From the sequence record MT446412.1: 64,000 nt of DNA. One strand, written 5' to 3'. The notes below the pieces were generated by a model. It was not told the origin of the DNA, ran no database searches, and was given only the letters and a program-made list of their open reading frames with translations. The translations under genes were made by a program, and so were the position numbers. Origin of the DNA: Escherichia virus TH41. Every line of letters starts with the position of its first letter. Positions within the stretch are counted from its first letter, which is position 1. Below are positions 13,763 through 60,973 of this stretch, in pieces.

Positions 13763-13966
13763 ATGTATAAATTAGAGAACGTAGTATTTATTGGTTGGTT
13801 TGAAAATGGTAATATGTTTACCAAAGAAACCGCGCTGGATGTCAGTGACAAAAATATGATTGAATGGGTTACAGTGCAGTATGCGGAAGTGAATAATGCG
13901 CTGGTTAAAGCCTTTGTTAATGACAATAAAGTTTTTGAATATGATGCCCGCATTGAGGAAATCTAA
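13763..13966 (+). CDS. hypothetical protein (67 aa)
   Basis: ORF abutting the previous stop; shares NALVKAFVND block with the next ORF. Confidence 0.5.
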   Translation: MYKLENVVFIGWFENGNMFTKETALDVSDKNMIEWVTVQYAEVNNALVKAFVNDNKVFEYDARIEEI

Positions 13967-14366: not shown

Positions 14367-14660
14367 ATGAAAAAGTTATTAATCGCAGCAATTCTTACCG
14401 TAGCATCATGTGGTACAGCCCCAGTTACTGCTGGGCTTGATAAAGACCTTTGTGAGTGGTCCATGACTGCGGACCAGACTGATGTTGAACACCAGATTTA
14501 TGCTGACATCATGAACATTACTAAACGTGACCACCCAGATATGGTTAAAGAAGTATCTGACCAACTGGCTTCTGGTGACGTTATGCAGTATAACTATGTT
14601 CTGTATTGCGATGCTTCATTTGACAACAGCAAGATTGTTCAATGGGTTACAGGTGAATAA
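14367..14660 (+). CDS. putative lipoprotein (97 aa)
   Basis: Signal peptide with lipobox TVASC. Confidence 0.55.
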   Translation: MKKLLIAAILTVASCGTAPVTAGLDKDLCEWSMTADQTDVEHQIYADIMNITKRDHPDMVKEVSDQLASGDVMQYNYVLYCDASFDNSKIVQWVTGE

Positions 14661-14661
14661 A

Positions 14662-15102
14662 ATGATTAACAGAAATTTAGTTATCAAAAAACTTCGTTGT
14701 AAAAATCAAAATGCACAAGCATACAGGATGTTTTGGAGCGACGAACCCATTCAATACCTGGGTTATTTTCTTGTTGATAGTGATAATAGAATTACGTTTG
14801 CTCATAAACTTCTTAACAAAGAATTAAACCATTGGCAAGAACTTATTGCGGTCAAGTCTAAATTATTTTCGCGCAATACAATGCACCAATTGGTTTATTT
14901 TTTCGCTGACGGTATTCCTGACAAGGTTGAGTTTGATGGGTTTGAATTTAAAGACATCACCCCTGATAATGAATTGAATGACAGTATTGTTAATATGGGT
15001 ATCCCGGGTAAGTACATCAAAAACAGTCTTTTGAAACTTCTGGAAACCCCTGTATATTCAGTTGACGACCAGATTTTTAATGCCTTCATGAAGCGAGATT
15101 AG
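14662..15102 (+). CDS. hypothetical protein (146 aa) with C-terminal DDQIFNAFMKRD tail
   Basis: ATG at 14662 (track ORF 14527 is a GTG-extended version overlapping the lipoprotein); tail shared with next ORF. Confidence 0.55.
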   Translation: MINRNLVIKKLRCKNQNAQAYRMFWSDEPIQYLGYFLVDSDNRITFAHKLLNKELNHWQELIAVKSKLFSRNTMHQLVYFFADGIPDKVEFDGFEFKDITPDNELNDSIVNMGIPGKYIKNSLLKLLETPVYSVDDQIFNAFMKRD

Positions 15103-15103
15103 T

Positions 15104-15463
15104 ATGAGTTATTATAATTTTCTGAATTTTGAACTGGCGAGCAATAATGATGGTAATGCTCATTATGAATTTCGTGAGCCACGGTTTAATCAAGCGATTG
15201 GTTATATTATCGTCAAAGATGATGTTATCATAAAGGCTCGCTCATTTATGGTAATGAATGGACCTTATGAAGATACTCGCGGCTATCCATTTGATAAAAA
15301 GAATGTGCGCGATTGTGCAGCATGGATAACCGGAAACCCCGAAATTGGGGTCATGATATCTACTGAAGCGAATGACATTCTGGAAGGGGTTTGGGCCAAA
15401 GCTCAAGAATCGTCTATTGCTATTGACGACCAGATTTTTAATGCCTTCATGAAACGAGGTTAA
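15104..15463 (+). CDS. hypothetical protein (119 aa) with C-terminal DDQIFNAFMKRG tail
   Basis: ORF; last about 36 nt nearly identical to the 3' end of the preceding gene. Confidence 0.55.
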   Translation: MSYYNFLNFELASNNDGNAHYEFREPRFNQAIGYIIVKDDVIIKARSFMVMNGPYEDTRGYPFDKKNVRDCAAWITGNPEIGVMISTEANDILEGVWAKAQESSIAIDDQIFNAFMKRG

Positions 15464-15686: not shown

Positions 15687-15852
15687 GATTTCCGTATTCG
15701 AGATTTTTGAAGAATATGAAATCGTGTCGCAAGACCAAGAAGCAATCCATGTTATCGCTGATGATGGTGTTACCTGGATTATTCCGTTGTATCATGAAGA
15801 CACTTATGAAGTGACTGATGCAAATGGTGATAAAGCTGTCTTCGTTGTATAA
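15661..15852 (+). CDS. hypothetical acidic protein (63 aa)
   Basis: ORF overlapping the previous ORF end. Confidence 0.45.
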   Translation: MSAMCTGSKISVFEIFEEYEIVSQDQEAIHVIADDGVTWIIPLYHEDTYEVTDANGDKAVFVV

Positions 15853-15855
15853 ATA
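15848..15855 (+). promoter_or_regulatory. late-promoter-like TATAAATA box
   Basis: Exact TATAAATA 17 nt upstream of a small ORF ATG; overlaps the preceding stop codon. Confidence 0.4.
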
Positions 15856-15871: not shown

Positions 15872-16039
15872 ATGAAAACATTCAAAGATTTTATCAACGA
15901 AAATATGGTTGCCGGTGATGCAGGTGGAAATCCAACTAATATCGCAACAGGTACCACTTCCGGGGCAGTTGTCAATAAAGGCCCTGAACAAATCCCATCA
16001 AAAAAGCGTAAGAACAAAGACGATAAACCTACAGTATAA
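15872..16039 (+). CDS. small hypothetical protein (55 aa)
   Basis: ATG after GGGGGTG RBS; MKTFKDFINEN...KKRKNKDDKPTV; below the ORF-track size cutoff. Confidence 0.35.
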   Translation: MKTFKDFINENMVAGDAGGNPTNIATGTTSGAVVNKGPEQIPSKKRKNKDDKPTV

Positions 16040-16071: not shown

Positions 16072-17100
16072 ATGTCATATATTGATAAAGAATTTGCGGT
16101 TAGAGCTTTATCGTATCAACCACGTTATAGAGAAGTCACCGGGAGCACATTTAAAGCAAACTGTCGTTGCAAGGTTTGTGGGGACTCCCAGAAAGATTCA
16201 CACAAGGCTCGATTCTGGGCGTATACTAATCCGGCTGATGGCGCGGTTTACGTGAAATGTTTTAACTGTGACTACTCCACGCATATAAGCAAATACATAA
16301 AAGAGTTTGAGCCGGATTTACACTGGGAATATATGGTTGAGAAGTATAAGGAGAATGCCTTTGGCAGACAACGTAATGAAGTTGCCGAAACTCCGAAAGA
16401 ACCAGAAAAAACTCCGGTTATCGAAGAGCTTGCTTTTTGTGAAAGACTCGATACTTTACCAGAAGCGCATCCTATAATTAAGTATGTAAAAAGTCGGTGT
16501 ATTCCTAGCAATGTTTGGAACCGGTTATGGTTTACAAACAAATGGCCTGCATTAGTTAACTCCGTTAATCCTGGGACGTATAAGAATGAAACGAATGAAC
16601 CACGCTTGGTTATTCCTATCTTCAACGGCAAAAAAGAAATCGAATCTTTCCAAGGACGAGCTCTTCGCAAAGATGCACCACAAAAATATATCACAATCAA
16701 AGCTCACCCAGAAGCTTCCAAAGTCTATGGTGTAGACAAGATTGATGAGCGCAAGCGCGTGTGGGTAATGGAAGGTCCGATTGATAGTTTGTTTATCCCT
16801 AACAGCATTGCGATAACTGGTGGAACATTGTCATTGGAAGCCGTTCCTTATCCAGAAACCAGAGTATGGGTAATGGACAACGAACCAAGACATCCGGATA
16901 CGATTAAACGTATGAAGAAGCTCGTTGAAGCTGGCGAAGCTGTTATGTTCTGGGACAATGCACCATGGCATACGAAAGACATAAATGAGATGGTTAAATC
17001 AGAAGGAGCAACCCCTGAACAAATCGAATCATATATGGCTGATAACGTTGCCCAAGGATTGATGGCGAGAATGCGACTTTCGAAGTACGCAAAAGTTTAG
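16072..17100 (+). CDS. 61: DNA primase gp61
   Basis: 342 aa as in T4; N-terminal zinc ribbon CRCKVCGDS...CFNCDYS plus TOPRIM-like core. Confidence 0.93.
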   Translation: MSYIDKEFAVRALSYQPRYREVTGSTFKANCRCKVCGDSQKDSHKARFWAYTNPADGAVYVKCFNCDYSTHISKYIKEFEPDLHWEYMVEKYKENAFGRQRNEVAETPKEPEKTPVIEELAFCERLDTLPEAHPIIKYVKSRCIPSNVWNRLWFTNKWPALVNSVNPGTYKNETNEPRLVIPIFNGKKEIESFQGRALRKDAPQKYITIKAHPEASKVYGVDKIDERKRVWVMEGPIDSLFIPNSIAITGGTLSLEAVPYPETRVWVMDNEPRHPDTIKRMKKLVEAGEAVMFWDNAPWHTKDINEMVKSEGATPEQIESYMADNVAQGLMARMRLSKYAKV

Positions 17101-17297
17101 GAAGGGATTCCGGTAAAGTAACCAATAATAGAATGGATATGTTCCATTGTGACCTGAGGTAAGTGCACCCCTTGTGTTGCGGCGATGGGTACAACCAGTA
17201 AGTTCCACAGGAAAACATCAAGAGCTAAAAAGCCCATGATGAGCTTCTTGTCTTTCTTACTGGTTAATTTCCAAATCTGATAGAATAATGTTCCCAT
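17097..17297 (-). CDS. small membrane protein (66 aa), paralog A
   Basis: Antisense ORF convergent on gene 61; GGTGG RBS; TM segment FLWNLLVVPIAATQGVHLP. Confidence 0.5.
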   Translation of the reverse strand: MGTLFYQIWKLTSKKDKKLIMGFLALDVFLWNLLVVPIAATQGVHLPQVTMEHIHSIIGYFTGIPS

Positions 17298-17305
17298 AGT
17301 TCCAC

Positions 17306-17503
17306 CTATATAAGGCCGATTAATGCCAGTGAAACATCTACAACTGATTCGAGCGCGACGACTGGTAATATAACACCATGTGCCAATGCAATAGGGGCAA
17401 CAATGAAATTCCAGAGTAGAACTAAACAGAGTACCGAAAGGACCAGAATCGTTCGCTTACGACTGCCTTTGATGGCTTGAATTAGACTAGATAGTTTTAG
17501 CAT
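17306..17503 (-). CDS. small membrane protein (65 aa), paralog B
   Basis: Strong AAGGAGGA RBS 7 nt upstream; TM segment LLWNFIVAPIALAHGVILP paralogous to the neighbour. Confidence 0.5.
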   Translation of the reverse strand: MLKLSSLIQAIKGSRKRTILVLSVLCLVLLWNFIVAPIALAHGVILPVVALESVVDVSLALIGLI

Positions 17504-17523
17504 ACATCCTCCTTTCTTGTATT

Positions 17524-17549
17524 TATGCTTTAAACCAATACGATATAAT
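17524..17549 (+). promoter_or_regulatory. candidate MotA-dependent middle promoter for gene 56
   Basis: taTGCTTtA, 11-nt spacer, TATAAT. Confidence 0.45.
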
Positions 17550-17587: not shown

Positions 17588-18106
17588 ATGGCACATTTTA
17601 ACGAATGTTCTCAACTGATTGCTGGTGTTGATAAAGCTCAAGGCGCTTATGATAATGCAATTTTTGAAGGCACTGACCCACTGCAAATTATGCTTGATAT
17701 GCAGAAATCGTTGCAGGTTCGTCTGGCTAAAGAAAAACCAGAATATAACGAACATCCTGATAACCTGGCGACTGCTGGTGAAGTTGTTACCTGGCTCCGC
17801 AACCAGAAAGATTATATTGATGATGAATTCCGTGAACTGATTACTGCATTAGGTGGCATGTCCAATGGCGAGAAAGCTGCCTCGGCCGTATGGAAGCCTT
17901 GGAAAGCACAACATGGCGAAATGCAGCAAACCCTAATTAATGATTTATCTCCTGAAGACCAGCTCGAAATTAAATTTGAGATGATTGATATCCTGCACTT
18001 TGTTCTGAATATGTTCCATGGCCTTGGACTGACTGCAGAAGAAATCTTTAAATTGTATTACCTGAAAAATGCTGAGAACTTTGCTCGTCAAGACCGAGGT
18101 TATTAA
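17588..18106 (+). CDS. 56: dCTP pyrophosphatase gp56 (MazG-like)
   Basis: ATG at 17588; MAHFNEC N-terminus and later blocks match T4 gp56. Confidence 0.85.
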   Translation: MAHFNECSQLIAGVDKAQGAYDNAIFEGTDPLQIMLDMQKSLQVRLAKEKPEYNEHPDNLATAGEVVTWLRNQKDYIDDEFRELITALGGMSNGEKAASAVWKPWKAQHGEMQQTLINDLSPEDQLEIKFEMIDILHFVLNMFHGLGLTAEEIFKLYYLKNAENFARQDRGY

Positions 18107-18389: not shown

Positions 18390-18397
18390 TATAAATA
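18390..18397 (+). promoter_or_regulatory. late promoter TATAAATA upstream of soc
   Basis: Exact TATAAATA about 30 nt upstream of the soc ATG. Confidence 0.5.
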
Positions 18398-18428: not shown

Positions 18429-18662
18429 ATGGGTGGTTTCGTTAATATCAAAACCTTTACGCATCCAGCTGGTGAAGGTAAAGAAGTTAAAGGTGTTGAA
18501 GTATCTGTTCCGTTTGAAATCTATTCAAATGAGCACCGTATTGCCAATGCTCATTATCAGACTTTTCCTTCCGAAAAGGCCGCTTATGTCACCGTAGCGT
18601 CTAGTGCAGCTGATTGGCGAACTAAGAACGCGGCGATGTTTACGCCTACCCCAGTAGTTTAA
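18429..18662 (+). CDS. soc: small outer capsid protein Soc
   Basis: 77 aa; GFVNIKTF...HYQTFPSEKAAY blocks match T4 Soc; late promoter upstream. Confidence 0.7.
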   Translation: MGGFVNIKTFTHPAGEGKEVKGVEVSVPFEIYSNEHRIANAHYQTFPSEKAAYVTVASSAADWRTKNAAMFTPTPVV

Positions 18663-60614: not shown

Positions 60615-60914
60615 ATGAAAGCCTGTCGGGTTGTTAACAAATATCAATCCGACTTTGATGTGAATATTCAACGGGGTACCATGTGGGGAAATCCATATAA
60701 AGATGGTACCCGAGAAGAAAACATAAAGAACTTTAAAGAATATTTCATAGCAAAGATTAAATCGGGTGAAATCAAAAGAGAACATCTTGAAACTCTCCGC
60801 GGAATGCGATTAGCCTGCACATGCAAACCGAAGTCATGTCATGGCGACGTTATCGCTCTGGTCGTTAACAAACTTTTCAAAGACACCTTTTCGCTCGAGG
60901 ATTTGGGTACATAA
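60615..60914 (+). CDS. hypothetical Cys-containing protein (99 aa)
   Basis: ORF; GNPYKDG and CTCKPKSCHGD motifs. Confidence 0.5.
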   Translation: MKACRVVNKYQSDFDVNIQRGTMWGNPYKDGTREENIKNFKEYFIAKIKSGEIKREHLETLRGMRLACTCKPKSCHGDVIALVVNKLFKDTFSLEDLGT

Positions 60915-60973
60915 ATACGATTCCGCTTCAGGGCACTGTGATATAATTATTTAAAATTTAATGAGAGGAAATT

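What the first reader, a model, noticed from the sequence alone, without database searches (positions are those of the whole stretch)
17097..17503. Two tandem antisense membrane-protein paralogs wedged between primase 61 and dCTPase 56
Two 65-66 aa ORFs on the - strand, with AAGGAGGA and GGTGG ribosome-binding sites, share a TM core (LLWNFIVAPIALAHGVILP versus FLWNLLVVPIAATQGVHLP). Their 3' end overlaps the gene 61 stop codon convergently. Antisense genes are rare in this early cluster. A near-consensus late box (CATAAATA) lies upstream on the - strand. They may be late membrane proteins involved in exclusion or lysis timing.
Basis: partly seen in the sequence, partly recalled or inferred. Interest (0 to 1): 0.5.

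Follow-up and report, generated by a model that had tools for sequence, protein, structure and literature searches.

The report
Late small membrane-protein gene pair
Two real, conserved genes for tiny inner-membrane proteins sit backwards between the primase and dCTPase genes of this T4-like phage, probably switched on late in infection; the family is already catalogued in hundreds of T4-type phages, but nobody knows what it does.

Summary
Both minus-strand ORFs exist (17306-17503, 65 aa; 17097-17297, 66 aa), and so do the stated ribosome-binding sites, the shared LWN..V.P.A...G..LP core, the 4-nt stop-codon overlap with gene 61 and the CATAAATA box.

Both are genuine coding genes of one small family (phrog_2024, RB69ORF029w-like). 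It is found only in enterobacterial T4-type phages and is always the lone opposite-strand gene abutting the primase stop codon. Between genera, synonymous sites are saturated while dN is 0.1-0.2.

An ATAAATA late-promoter core lies 22-28 nt before the start codon in 12 of 14 lineages examined, so late expression is well supported in silico.

The two copies are old subtypes (28% identical), not a recent duplication. The promoter-less distal copy has decayed independently in about 20 of 27 close relatives. The proximal copy is always intact.

Predicted topology is N-in/C-out with one transmembrane helix that carries an invariant Trp and Pro and a near-invariant Asn.

Function is unknown. 'Holin' labels in databases are unsupported, and lysis timing or exclusion remains untested.

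The T4 reference record does not annotate its own intact copy.

The genes are already deposited as hypothetical proteins, so this is moderately interesting and not new.

The parts
17306..17503 (-). ORF-A, 65 aa, the promoter-proximal small membrane protein (T4/RB69ORF029w-like subtype)
   Evidence: ORF listed. Hits phrog_2024 at E=1.8e-26. 100% identical to UPEC01 QQG30883. Intact in all Gaprivervirus relatives examined. AF2 model has helix 4-41, a loop, and helix 51-62, at pLDDT 79.
17097..17297 (-). ORF-B, 66 aa, the distal paralog (Dhakavirus/Marfavirus-like subtype)
   Evidence: ORF listed. Hits phrog_2024 at E=6e-28. 75-89% identical to JS98, Marfa and Potts1 homologs. dN/dS is 0.05 against the VR25 copy. 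It is a pseudogene in VR20, SP18, EAWsc9 and RZ. AF2 model has the same helix-loop-helix fold.
17520..17527 (-). Late-promoter-like box CATAAATA (7 of 8 matches to T4 TATAAATA; the deviation is at the poorly conserved -13 position)
   Evidence: Sequence read. The ATAAATA core is conserved at -28..-22 in 12 of 14 lineages. The motif is depleted in the window. Position -13 is variable according to PMC2988020 and PMC1524935.
17507..17514 (-). Shine-Dalgarno AAGGAGGA of ORF-A
   Evidence: Sequence read. A strong SD (AGGAG/GGAGG) is present at the same place in all homologs.
17302..17306 (-). Shine-Dalgarno GGTGG of ORF-B, overlapping the TAG stop of ORF-A; the gap between the two ORFs is 8 nt and holds no promoter box, so the arrangement is bicistronic
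   Evidence: Sequence read.
17097..17100 (.). 4-nt convergent overlap of the ORF-B stop (TAA) and the gene 61 stop (TAG)
   Evidence: The same 4-nt overlap occurs in T4, T2, RB69, JS98, Marfa, STP4-a, Ursula, MY742 and two metagenomic contigs.
17523..17549 (+). Probable MotA-dependent middle promoter of gene 56: MotA box TTATGCTTTA at 17523-17532, an 11-nt spacer, then TATAAT at 17544-17549. It lies back-to-back with the late box and overlaps it.
   Evidence: Sequence read. Consensus (a/t)(a/t)(a/t)TGCTTtA placed 12+/-1 bp from the -10 element, from PMC2988021. Conserved in relatives.
16072..17100 (+). Gene 61 DNA primase (context). The late transcript from the box above would run antisense into its 3' end.
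   Evidence: Hits phrog_47 at E=2e-93. Annotation in relatives. No convincing intrinsic terminator on the minus strand downstream of ORF-B.
17588..18106 (+). Gene 56 dCTPase (context)
   Evidence: Hits Pfam dUTPase_2 and phrog_173. Annotation in relatives.

Best explanation
The locus is a two-gene late operon on the strand opposite to the early genes.

Expression. A gp55-type late promoter (CATAAATA, 17520-17527) fires after DNA replication has begun. It sits back-to-back with the middle promoter of gene 56. The mRNA has a very short leader carrying a strong Shine-Dalgarno sequence. It encodes ORF-A and, 8 nt downstream with an SD that overlaps ORF-A's stop codon, ORF-B. ORF-B has no promoter of its own and depends on read-through. 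With no strong terminator, the transcript probably continues antisense into the 3' end of the primase gene.

Proteins. Both products belong to one small family (phrog_2024, RB69ORF029w-like, 58-69 aa) that is restricted to enterobacterial T4-type phages. Each has a basic N-terminus that stays in the cytoplasm and one transmembrane helix. That helix carries an invariant Trp and Pro and a near-invariant Asn (Trp-Asn ... Pro) inside the bilayer. It is followed by a conserved G-x-x-L-P-x-h-x-h-E/D turn and a short hydrophobic C-terminal helix on the periplasmic side.

Inferred mechanism. The buried Asn/Pro motif mediates helix-helix association, either with itself, between A and B, or with a larger membrane protein. 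The peptides would then act as small membrane-embedded modulators of a late envelope-associated step. ORF-B is functionally redundant with ORF-A.

Shown computationally: the genes are real and under purifying selection, and synteny, the promoter motif, the family motif and the decay of ORF-B are all documented.

Inferred only: late timing in vivo, topology, oligomerisation and the biological role.
For: Coding:
- phrog_2024 hits at E=6e-28 and 1.8e-26.
- Between genera, synonymous sites are saturated while dN is 0.10-0.22.
- ORF-B against the VR25 copy shows 10 synonymous and 2 non-synonymous changes, dN/dS 0.05.
- Length is conserved at 58-69 aa across all relatives.

Synteny: the gene is the lone opposite-strand gene against the primase stop codon in Tequatro-, Mosig-, Dhaka-, Gapriver-, Marfa-, Jiaoda- and Gelderlandvirus, unclassified Straboviridae and two metagenomic contigs.

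Late promoter:
- The ATAAATA core lies at -28..-22 in 12 of 14 lineages, and is a perfect TATAAATA in Bp7, Marfa and MY742.
- The motif is two-fold depleted in the window.
- The 16-nt box-to-ATG spacing equals that of another late box in the window.
- Position -13 is known to vary.
- The C at -13 coincides with the G of the MotA box on the other strand.

Bicistronic arrangement: 8-nt gap, an SD over the stop codon, and no box before ORF-B.

Membrane and topology:
- Best 19-residue window has mean Kyte-Doolittle hydropathy of 2.1-2.6.
- The N-flank has 5 K/R and the C-flank has none, plus 1-2 acidic residues.
- AF2 gives helix-loop-helix for both proteins.
- Nolan et al. 2006 predicted a TM at residues 21-41 and no signal peptide for RB69ORF029w.

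Redundancy: at least five independent lesion classes destroy ORF-B in about 20 of 27 relatives, while ORF-A is always intact.
Against: - I found no transcript, peptide or phenotype data for any family member.
- The box is 7 of 8 here. C or G at -13 is rarer than A or T among documented T4 late promoters.
- The RB69 site was not called in the HMM-based late-promoter list of Nolan et al. 2006.
- Two lineages (STP4-a, Ursula) have ATTAAATA instead.
- The very short leader here would put the SD at the extreme 5' end of the mRNA.
- Topology rests only on the positive-inside rule and AF2 models of moderate confidence (pLDDT 73-79).
- The conserved P-x-A-x-[AST] stretch could be a signal-peptidase site rather than part of a stable anchor.
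- Nothing ties the proteins to a specific process.
Confidence: 0.7

Rival explanations
1. The proteins are holins or pinholins, or regulators of lysis timing or lysis inhibition that act on the T holin / RI / RIII network.
For: - Small, hydrophobic and probably late, like holins.
- UniProt A0A482MZV5 (51% identical) is named 'Holin', and EAWsc9's copy is named 'holin family protein'.
- 3 of 20 family members give faint hits to the C-terminal part of Pfam GTA_holin_3TM, at E=0.03-0.1.
- Acidic residues in the C-terminal hydrophobic segment would fit a pore-lining helix.
Against: - The Pfam hits are far below the gathering score (13-15 bits against 24.8), and the two window proteins give none.
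- No NCBIfam, PDB or fold match to any holin.
- There is no charged C-terminal cytoplasmic tail. The basic region is N-terminal.
- There is only one segment long enough to span the membrane.
- T4-type phages already have holin T, antiholins RI and RIII, and spanins (established knowledge).
- The locus is not near any lysis gene.
Confidence: 0.15
2. The proteins are superinfection-exclusion or immunity factors. They would block DNA entry of secondary phages, or protect the infected cell envelope, in the way Imm and Sp do.
For: - Inner-membrane location with a conserved periplasm-facing motif.
- Three diverged subtypes, with variable N- and C-termini and gain and loss of a second copy. That diversification is typical of conflict genes.
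Against: - T4 Imm and Sp are early genes, because exclusion must act within minutes (established knowledge). This locus has a late box and no early promoter.
- No sequence or fold similarity to Imm or Sp. Both of those are present elsewhere in the same window or in relatives.
Confidence: 0.1
3. The main product is the RNA. On this view a late antisense transcript, or convergent transcription, silences the primase/dCTPase messages late in infection, and the peptides are secondary.
For: - The stop codons of ORF-B and gene 61 overlap, and no convincing terminator follows ORF-B on the minus strand, so late transcripts should extend antisense into gene 61.
- The late box overlaps the gene 56 middle promoter.
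- Both T4 DNA strands are known to be transcribed at different times at several sites (PMC2988020).
Against: - An RNA-only role would not keep a 58-69-codon frame open across all genera with saturated synonymous sites, low dN and an invariant peptide motif.
- It would not explain a strong SD at every start codon.
- This can be an added effect, not the primary one.
Confidence: 0.1
4. The N-terminal two-thirds is a cleavable Sec signal peptide. The active product would be a secreted or periplasmic peptide of about 24 residues (HGVILPVVALESVVDVSLALIGLI in ORF-A).
For: - Conserved P-x-A-x-[A/S/T] immediately before the conserved Gly resembles a signal-peptidase I site: A-L-A|H in ORF-A, A-I-A|H in T4, A-L-A|Y in STP4-a, A-A-S|N in MY742.
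- The architecture is a basic n-region followed by a hydrophobic stretch.
Against: - The most conserved residues (W31, N32, P37) lie inside the putative signal sequence, which is unusual for a mere targeting signal.
- The hydrophobic stretch is about 20-24 residues, which is signal-anchor length.
- SignalP was negative for RB69ORF029w in Nolan et al. 2006.
- ORF-B has Thr at -1.
Confidence: 0.08
5. The ORFs are chance open frames in an intergenic spacer.
For: They are short ORFs in an AT-rich phage genome. T4, SP18, JS98 and some other records do not annotate them.
Against: - phrog_2024 E-values of about 1e-27.
- About 1,000 phage records carry a homolog at the same site.
- The purifying-selection signature.
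- The conserved SD and promoter box.
Confidence: 0.01

Closest known systems
phrog_2024 / RB69ORF029w / RB32ORF030w / VR7ORF033w family of hypothetical proteins in T4-type phages
   Same: - Full-length HMM match for both ORFs.
- Same length and same W-N-x4-P-x-A-x3-G-x2-L-P motif.
- Same position and orientation against the gene 61 stop codon.
- Same upstream late-box-plus-SD arrangement.
- The window proteins are 100% identical to UPEC01 QQG30883 and QQG30882.
   Different: Most phages carry one copy. This window and 6 other Gapriverviruses carry intact copies of two different subtypes in tandem, the second without its own promoter. No member has an assigned function.
Phage holins of class II / pinholin size (e.g. 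S21 68, T7 gp17.5), and Pfam GTA_holin_3TM (PF11351)
   Same: Small size, hydrophobic character and probable late expression. Distant family members give faint sub-threshold similarity to the C-terminal third of PF11351.
   Different: - No significant HMM or fold match.
- One clear TM rather than two or three.
- A basic N-terminus instead of a charged C-terminal tail.
- Not linked to an endolysin.
- T4-type phages already use the unrelated holin T.
T4 Imm and Sp (superinfection exclusion) and RI (antiholin)
   Same: Small envelope proteins of T-even phages that act at the inner membrane or in the periplasm.
   Different: No sequence similarity. Imm and Sp are early genes on the early strand. 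RI has a SAR domain and a folded periplasmic domain. The present family has only about 25 residues beyond the membrane.
Bacterial small membrane-protein regulators (e.g. MgrB, AcrZ, MgtS, CydX)
   Same: Single-pass peptides of 30-70 aa that work by binding larger membrane proteins through their TM helix. A polar or Pro motif inside the helix is compatible with this mode of action.
   Different: This is a functional analogy only, drawn from my own knowledge. There is no homology and no partner has been identified.

Membership tests
phrog_2024 (RB69ORF029w-like small proteins of T4-type phages) | Significant full-length match to the family HMM | tested here: met
   E=1.8e-26 (ORF-A, residues 1-65 on profile 1-65) and 6e-28 (ORF-B, 1-64 on 1-64).
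phrog_2024 (RB69ORF029w-like small proteins of T4-type phages) | Conserved motif W-N-x4-P-x-A-x3-G-x2-L-P inside and after the hydrophobic helix | tested here: met
   Present in both ORFs. W31 and P37 are invariant, and N32, A39, G43 and P47 are at least 90% conserved across 20 diverse members.
phrog_2024 (RB69ORF029w-like small proteins of T4-type phages) | Synteny: opposite-strand gene whose stop codon overlaps the gene 61 stop codon | tested here: met
   ORF-B overlaps gene 61 by 4 nt, as in 10 other lineages. ORF-A lies immediately upstream of ORF-B.
T4-type late genes (gp55/gp33/gp45-dependent) | TATAAATA box at -13 to -6 of the transcription start | tested here: inconclusive
   CATAAATA matches 7 of 8 here, deviating at the least conserved position. 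The ATAAATA core is conserved in 12 of 14 lineages, and three lineages have the perfect box. The transcription start itself is not mapped. The RB69 site is absent from a published HMM list.
T4-type late genes (gp55/gp33/gp45-dependent) | Transcript appears after DNA replication starts and depends on gp55 | not testable with these tools
   No expression data for this ORF turned up in the literature searches. The T4 omics study used the reference annotation, which lacks the ORF.
Holins | Significant similarity to a curated holin family | tested here: not met
   No Pfam or NCBIfam hit for either window protein. Only 3 of 20 relatives hit PF11351, at 13-15 bits against a cutoff of 24.8. No PDB sequence or fold match.
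Holins | Hydrophilic, highly charged C-terminal domain after the last TM | tested here: not met
   The C-flank has 0 K/R and ends in a hydrophobic helix. The basic cluster (5 K/R) is N-terminal.
Holins | Lethal, timed permeabilisation of the inner membrane that releases endolysin | not testable with these tools
   Requires expression and lysis assays.
Superinfection exclusion proteins Imm / Sp | Homology to Imm or Sp, and early expression | tested here: not met
   Imm and Sp homologs are separate early-strand genes in the same region. The present ORFs are on the other strand with a late-type box and no sigma-70 early promoter upstream.
Bitopic inner-membrane proteins, N-in/C-out | One hydrophobic helix of about 20 residues, with the positive charge bias on the N-terminal side | tested here: met
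   Mean Kyte-Doolittle hydropathy of 2.1-2.6 over 19 residues. N-flank has 5 K/R, C-flank has 0 K/R. AF2 gives helix 4-41 and 14-41. This is prediction only.

The most novel reading that the evidence does not exclude
This family is an overlooked, near-universal late inner-membrane factor of T-even infection that is missing from the T4 reference annotation. One possibility is an unrecognised component of lysis inhibition or holin control. Another is the membrane-bound initiation of head assembly. On this reading the buried Asn/Pro helix motif docks onto a phage or host membrane protein. The tandem A+B arrangement in some Gapriverviruses would then be a snapshot of subtype replacement.
Probability: 0.2. 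Interest if true: 0.65.

Novelty: already known. Interest (0 to 1): 0.35.

Why it matters
The sequences themselves are not new. Identical proteins are deposited for phage UPEC01, and the family has been listed as a hypothetical ORF since the RB69 genome was published.

The analysis adds three things:
- The family is one conserved gene: it shares a late-promoter core, is under strong purifying selection and is the only gene on that strand across 40 kb of the early region.
- T4, the most-studied phage of the group, carries an intact copy that its RefSeq record does not annotate. T4 omics and genetic screens based on that annotation have therefore missed it.
- The second copy is decaying naturally in relatives, which amounts to a redundancy experiment.

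If a role in lysis control, envelope integrity or head assembly were found, it would add a component to a system widely thought to be well catalogued. Otherwise it remains one of many small phage membrane proteins of unknown function.

Tried and rejected
- Pfam, NCBIfam and PADLOC scans of the two proteins and of 20 diverse relatives gave nothing significant, only faint GTA_holin_3TM, COX7B, MASE7 and GajB noise.
- A PDB sequence-profile search gave only chance matches to nicotinic-receptor TM helices, E>=0.04.
- Foldseek of the AF2 model against the PDB found nothing. Against BFVD it found only family members, one of them labelled 'Holin'. The afdb50 library was unavailable.
- An exhaustive HMMER search of 1.8 billion cluster representatives found only 14, one of which (P0074) is a repetitive false positive. 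There is therefore no link to a larger family. A word-indexed profile search returned only T4-type phage proteins with no Pfam domains.
- Cluster names are all 'hypothetical' or obvious mis-annotations.
- Seven literature searches (ORF names, T4 antisense and late promoter, Ribo-seq and small proteins, TSS maps, dam/gene 61) returned no paper on this ORF. The Miller 2003 T4 review is not held.
- The terminator scan and RNA folding found no convincing intrinsic terminator on either strand around the ORFs. There is only a weak imperfect hairpin about 45-95 nt downstream of ORF-B, z=-1.9.
- Recent tandem duplication is rejected, because A and B are 28% identical and group with different genera.
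- The spurious-ORF hypothesis is rejected.
Full report
**Origin of the window.** The region is 98.7% identical over 2.2 kb to Escherichia phage UPEC01 and 93-98% identical to phages VR20, VR25 and others. These are Gapriverviruses (Straboviridae, Tevenvirinae). Gene 61 (primase, 16072-17100, +) and gene 56 (dCTPase, 17588-18106, +) are confirmed by PHROG and Pfam hits and by the annotation of relatives.

**Checking the observation.**
- ORF-A is 17306..17503(-), 65 aa, and ORF-B is 17097..17297(-), 66 aa.
- AAGGAGGA lies 3 nt before the ATG of ORF-A.
- GGTGG lies 4 nt before the ATG of ORF-B and overlaps the TAG stop of ORF-A. The intercistronic gap is 8 nt.
- The stop codons of ORF-B and gene 61 overlap in a 4-nt TTAG.
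- CATAAATA lies 16 nt before the ATG of ORF-A.
- In 40 kb of the near-identical UPEC01 early region, these are the only 2 of 81 CDS on that strand.

**Are they real genes?** Yes.
- Both match phrog_2024 end to end, at E=1.8e-26 and 6e-28.
- They align to each other without gaps at 28% identity, sharing L-W-N-x2-V-x-P-x-A-x3-G-x2-L-P.
- tblastn finds relatives of ORF-A in 692 phage records, of ORF-B in 112, and of a third subtype in 279.
- By Nei-Gojobori counting, comparisons between genera have saturated synonymous sites with dN of only 0.10-0.22.
- ORF-B against its VR25 ortholog shows 10 synonymous and 2 non-synonymous changes, dN/dS 0.05. ORF-A against RB69 gives dN/dS 0.14.
- The + strand carries no comparable ORF here, so the constraint is not borrowed from an overlapping frame.

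**The family and its synteny.**
- An exhaustive profile search of 1.8 billion cluster representatives found only 14 representatives at E<=1e-3, one of them a repetitive false positive. The family is therefore small and isolated.
- Every genomic context examined is the same. The gene is the single opposite-strand gene set against the 3' end of the primase gene, nearly always with the same 4-nt stop overlap. Genomes examined: T4, T2, phage 107 and fPS-65 (Tequatrovirus); RB69 (Mosigvirus, RB69ORF029w); JS98 and Bp7 (Dhakavirus); Marfa; PKO111 (Jiaodavirus); STP4-a (Gelderlandvirus); Ursula; MY742; and two metagenomic contigs.
- RB49 (Krischvirus) has genes 61 and 56 only 14 nt apart and lacks the gene.
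- All source names are 'hypothetical' or 'uncharacterized', apart from evident mis-annotations.
- The T4 RefSeq record annotates nothing between dam and 61. An intact 66-aa member with an AAAGGAGGA SD lies at 17738..17938(+).

**Timing of expression.**
- The upstream regions of the homologs are otherwise diverged. Even so, 12 of 14 lineages keep ATAAATA 22-28 nt before the ATG, directly followed by a strong SD.
- The box is a perfect TATAAATA in Bp7, Marfa and MY742. It has A, G or C at -13 elsewhere. It is ATTAAATA in STP4-a and Ursula.
- ATAAATA is rare in the window: 11 copies against 20.7 +/- 4.6 in shuffles. Eight of the 11 are perfect TATAAATA boxes; some, such as those before soc and the 61.1 homolog, sit just upstream of a start codon.
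- Published reviews state that -13 is the least conserved position of T4-type late promoters. They also state that late transcripts can have either polarity (PMC2988020 and PMC1524935).
- In this window the C at -13 is also the G of a consensus MotA box on the other strand: TTATGCTTTA, 11 nt, TATAAT, matching the consensus in PMC2988021. That would be the middle promoter of gene 56. The two promoters are therefore back-to-back and overlapping, which plausibly explains the deviation.
- Against this, the RB69 site was not in the HMM-derived late-promoter list of Nolan et al. 2006, and no transcript has been mapped.
- ORF-B has no box of its own, so it must be co-transcribed with ORF-A. It may also be translationally coupled to it.
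- No convincing terminator follows ORF-B, so the late RNA probably runs antisense into gene 61.

**The proteins.**
- Each has a basic N-terminal segment (5 K/R) and one strongly hydrophobic stretch of about 20-24 residues. No K/R follows that stretch, and 1-2 acidic residues do.
- By the positive-inside rule this gives an N-in/C-out orientation.
- AF2 models of both proteins (pLDDT 79 and 73) show a long helix to residue 41, a 9-residue loop, and a 12-residue C-terminal helix.
- Nolan et al. 2006 had predicted a TM at residues 21-41 and no signal peptide for RB69ORF029w.
- The most conserved residues (W31, N32, P37, A39, G43, P47; W31 and P37 invariant) lie within and just after the helix. A polar Asn and a Pro fixed inside a TM helix point to helix-helix association (inference).
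- P-x-A-x-[AST] could alternatively be a signal-peptidase site. I rate this low, because signal sequences are not normally the most conserved part of a protein.

**History of the pair.**
- ORF-A is about 50% identical to the T4 and RB69 type. ORF-B is 75-89% identical to the Dhakavirus, Marfavirus and some Klebsiella-phage type.
- The tandem pair therefore combines two old subtypes. It is not a fresh duplication.
- Among 27 distinct close relatives that carry the ORF-A type, 7 keep both copies intact: UPEC01, TH44, P479, VR26, MN01, VR25 and TH15.
- In the other 20 or so, ORF-B is destroyed by at least five different lesions:
  - a nonsense mutation at codon 2 plus a 2-nt deletion (VR20);
  - a frameshift (VR7);
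  - a 26-nt deletion plus a homing-endonuclease insertion (RZ, DK-13);
  - a 97-nt deletion (SP18 class, 8 phages);
  - an 85-nt deletion with loss of the start codon (EAWsc9 class, 8 phages).
- ORF-A is always intact. Hence one copy is needed and the second is dispensable.

**Function.**
- Nothing links the family to a known mechanism. There are no significant Pfam, NCBIfam, PADLOC, PDB-sequence or PDB-fold matches.
- The 'Holin' and 'holin family' labels on two entries have no support beyond sub-threshold PF11351 hits in 3 of 20 relatives.
- The holin hallmark of a charged C-terminal tail is absent.
- Exclusion is disfavoured because the known T4 exclusion genes are early genes.
- My best reading is a late, bitopic inner-membrane peptide that acts by TM-helix association with itself or with a larger membrane protein, affecting some late envelope-associated step.
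- My probabilities for specific roles are about 0.15 for lysis control, about 0.1 for exclusion, and about 0.1 for an antisense-RNA side effect on gene 61.

**Verdict.** 'Late membrane-protein paralogs' is supported in silico, while 'exclusion or lysis timing' remains untested. The genes are already deposited and the family is already catalogued, so novelty is low. The residual interest lies in a conserved, uncharacterised late gene that the T4 reference annotation misses.

Noticed in passing
L004 3739-3939 (= T4 NC_000866.4 17738..17938, + strand): The T4 RefSeq record annotates nothing between dam and gene 61. An intact 66-aa family member with an AAAGGAGGA SD and an upstream GATAAATA box lies there. 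The exact protein occurs only in unnamed Logan assemblies.
   Followed up: partly
window 17523-17549 (+): A consensus MotA box (TTATGCTTTA), an 11-nt spacer and TATAAT form a probable middle promoter for gene 56. It overlaps the minus-strand late box, giving a compact divergent middle/late promoter pair. It is conserved in Gaprivervirus relatives.
   Followed up: partly
window 15848-15855 (+) and 18390-18397 (+): Perfect TATAAATA late boxes lie 16 nt before the ATG of the 61.1 homolog (15872..16039) and 31 nt before soc (18429..18662). Both are on the early-gene strand.
   Followed up: no
window, whole (both strands): The late-promoter core ATAAATA is about two-fold depleted: 11 copies against 20.7 +/- 4.6 in dinucleotide shuffles, and all 100 shuffles had at least 11. 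This suggests selection against stray late promoters.
   Followed up: partly
L013 1598-2347 (RZ); L010 1708-2463 (Bp7); also DK-13 and Yersinia phage P8: Homing-endonuclease genes are inserted immediately after gene 61 in several relatives. In RZ and DK-13 the insertion accompanies disruption of ORF-B. The 61/56 junction looks like an insertion hotspot; in T4 it also holds dam and segF.
   Followed up: partly
L020 17097-17297 (UPEC01 QQG30882) and other records: Family members carry clearly wrong product names in GenBank or UniProt: 'DNA packaging ATPase', 'thymidylate synthase', 'dCTP pyrophosphatase', 'putative head morphogenesis protein', 'Holin'.
   Followed up: yes
window 14527-15102 (+) and 15104-15463 (+): Two adjacent early-strand ORFs end in the same peptide, DDQIFNAFMKR[D/G]. 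This suggests tandem paralogs in the 61.2 region.
   Followed up: no
L006 1496-1536 (fPS-65) / T4-type phages: In Tequatroviruses, a terminator annotated for the gene 61 strand lies inside the first codons of the small ORF: hairpin ATGGCA..TGCCAT followed by a T-run. No equivalent hairpin is found in the window.
   Followed up: partly
window 13785-13791 (-) and 60911-60917 (+): Two further ATAAATA cores without T at -13. They were not examined for downstream ORFs.
   Followed up: no
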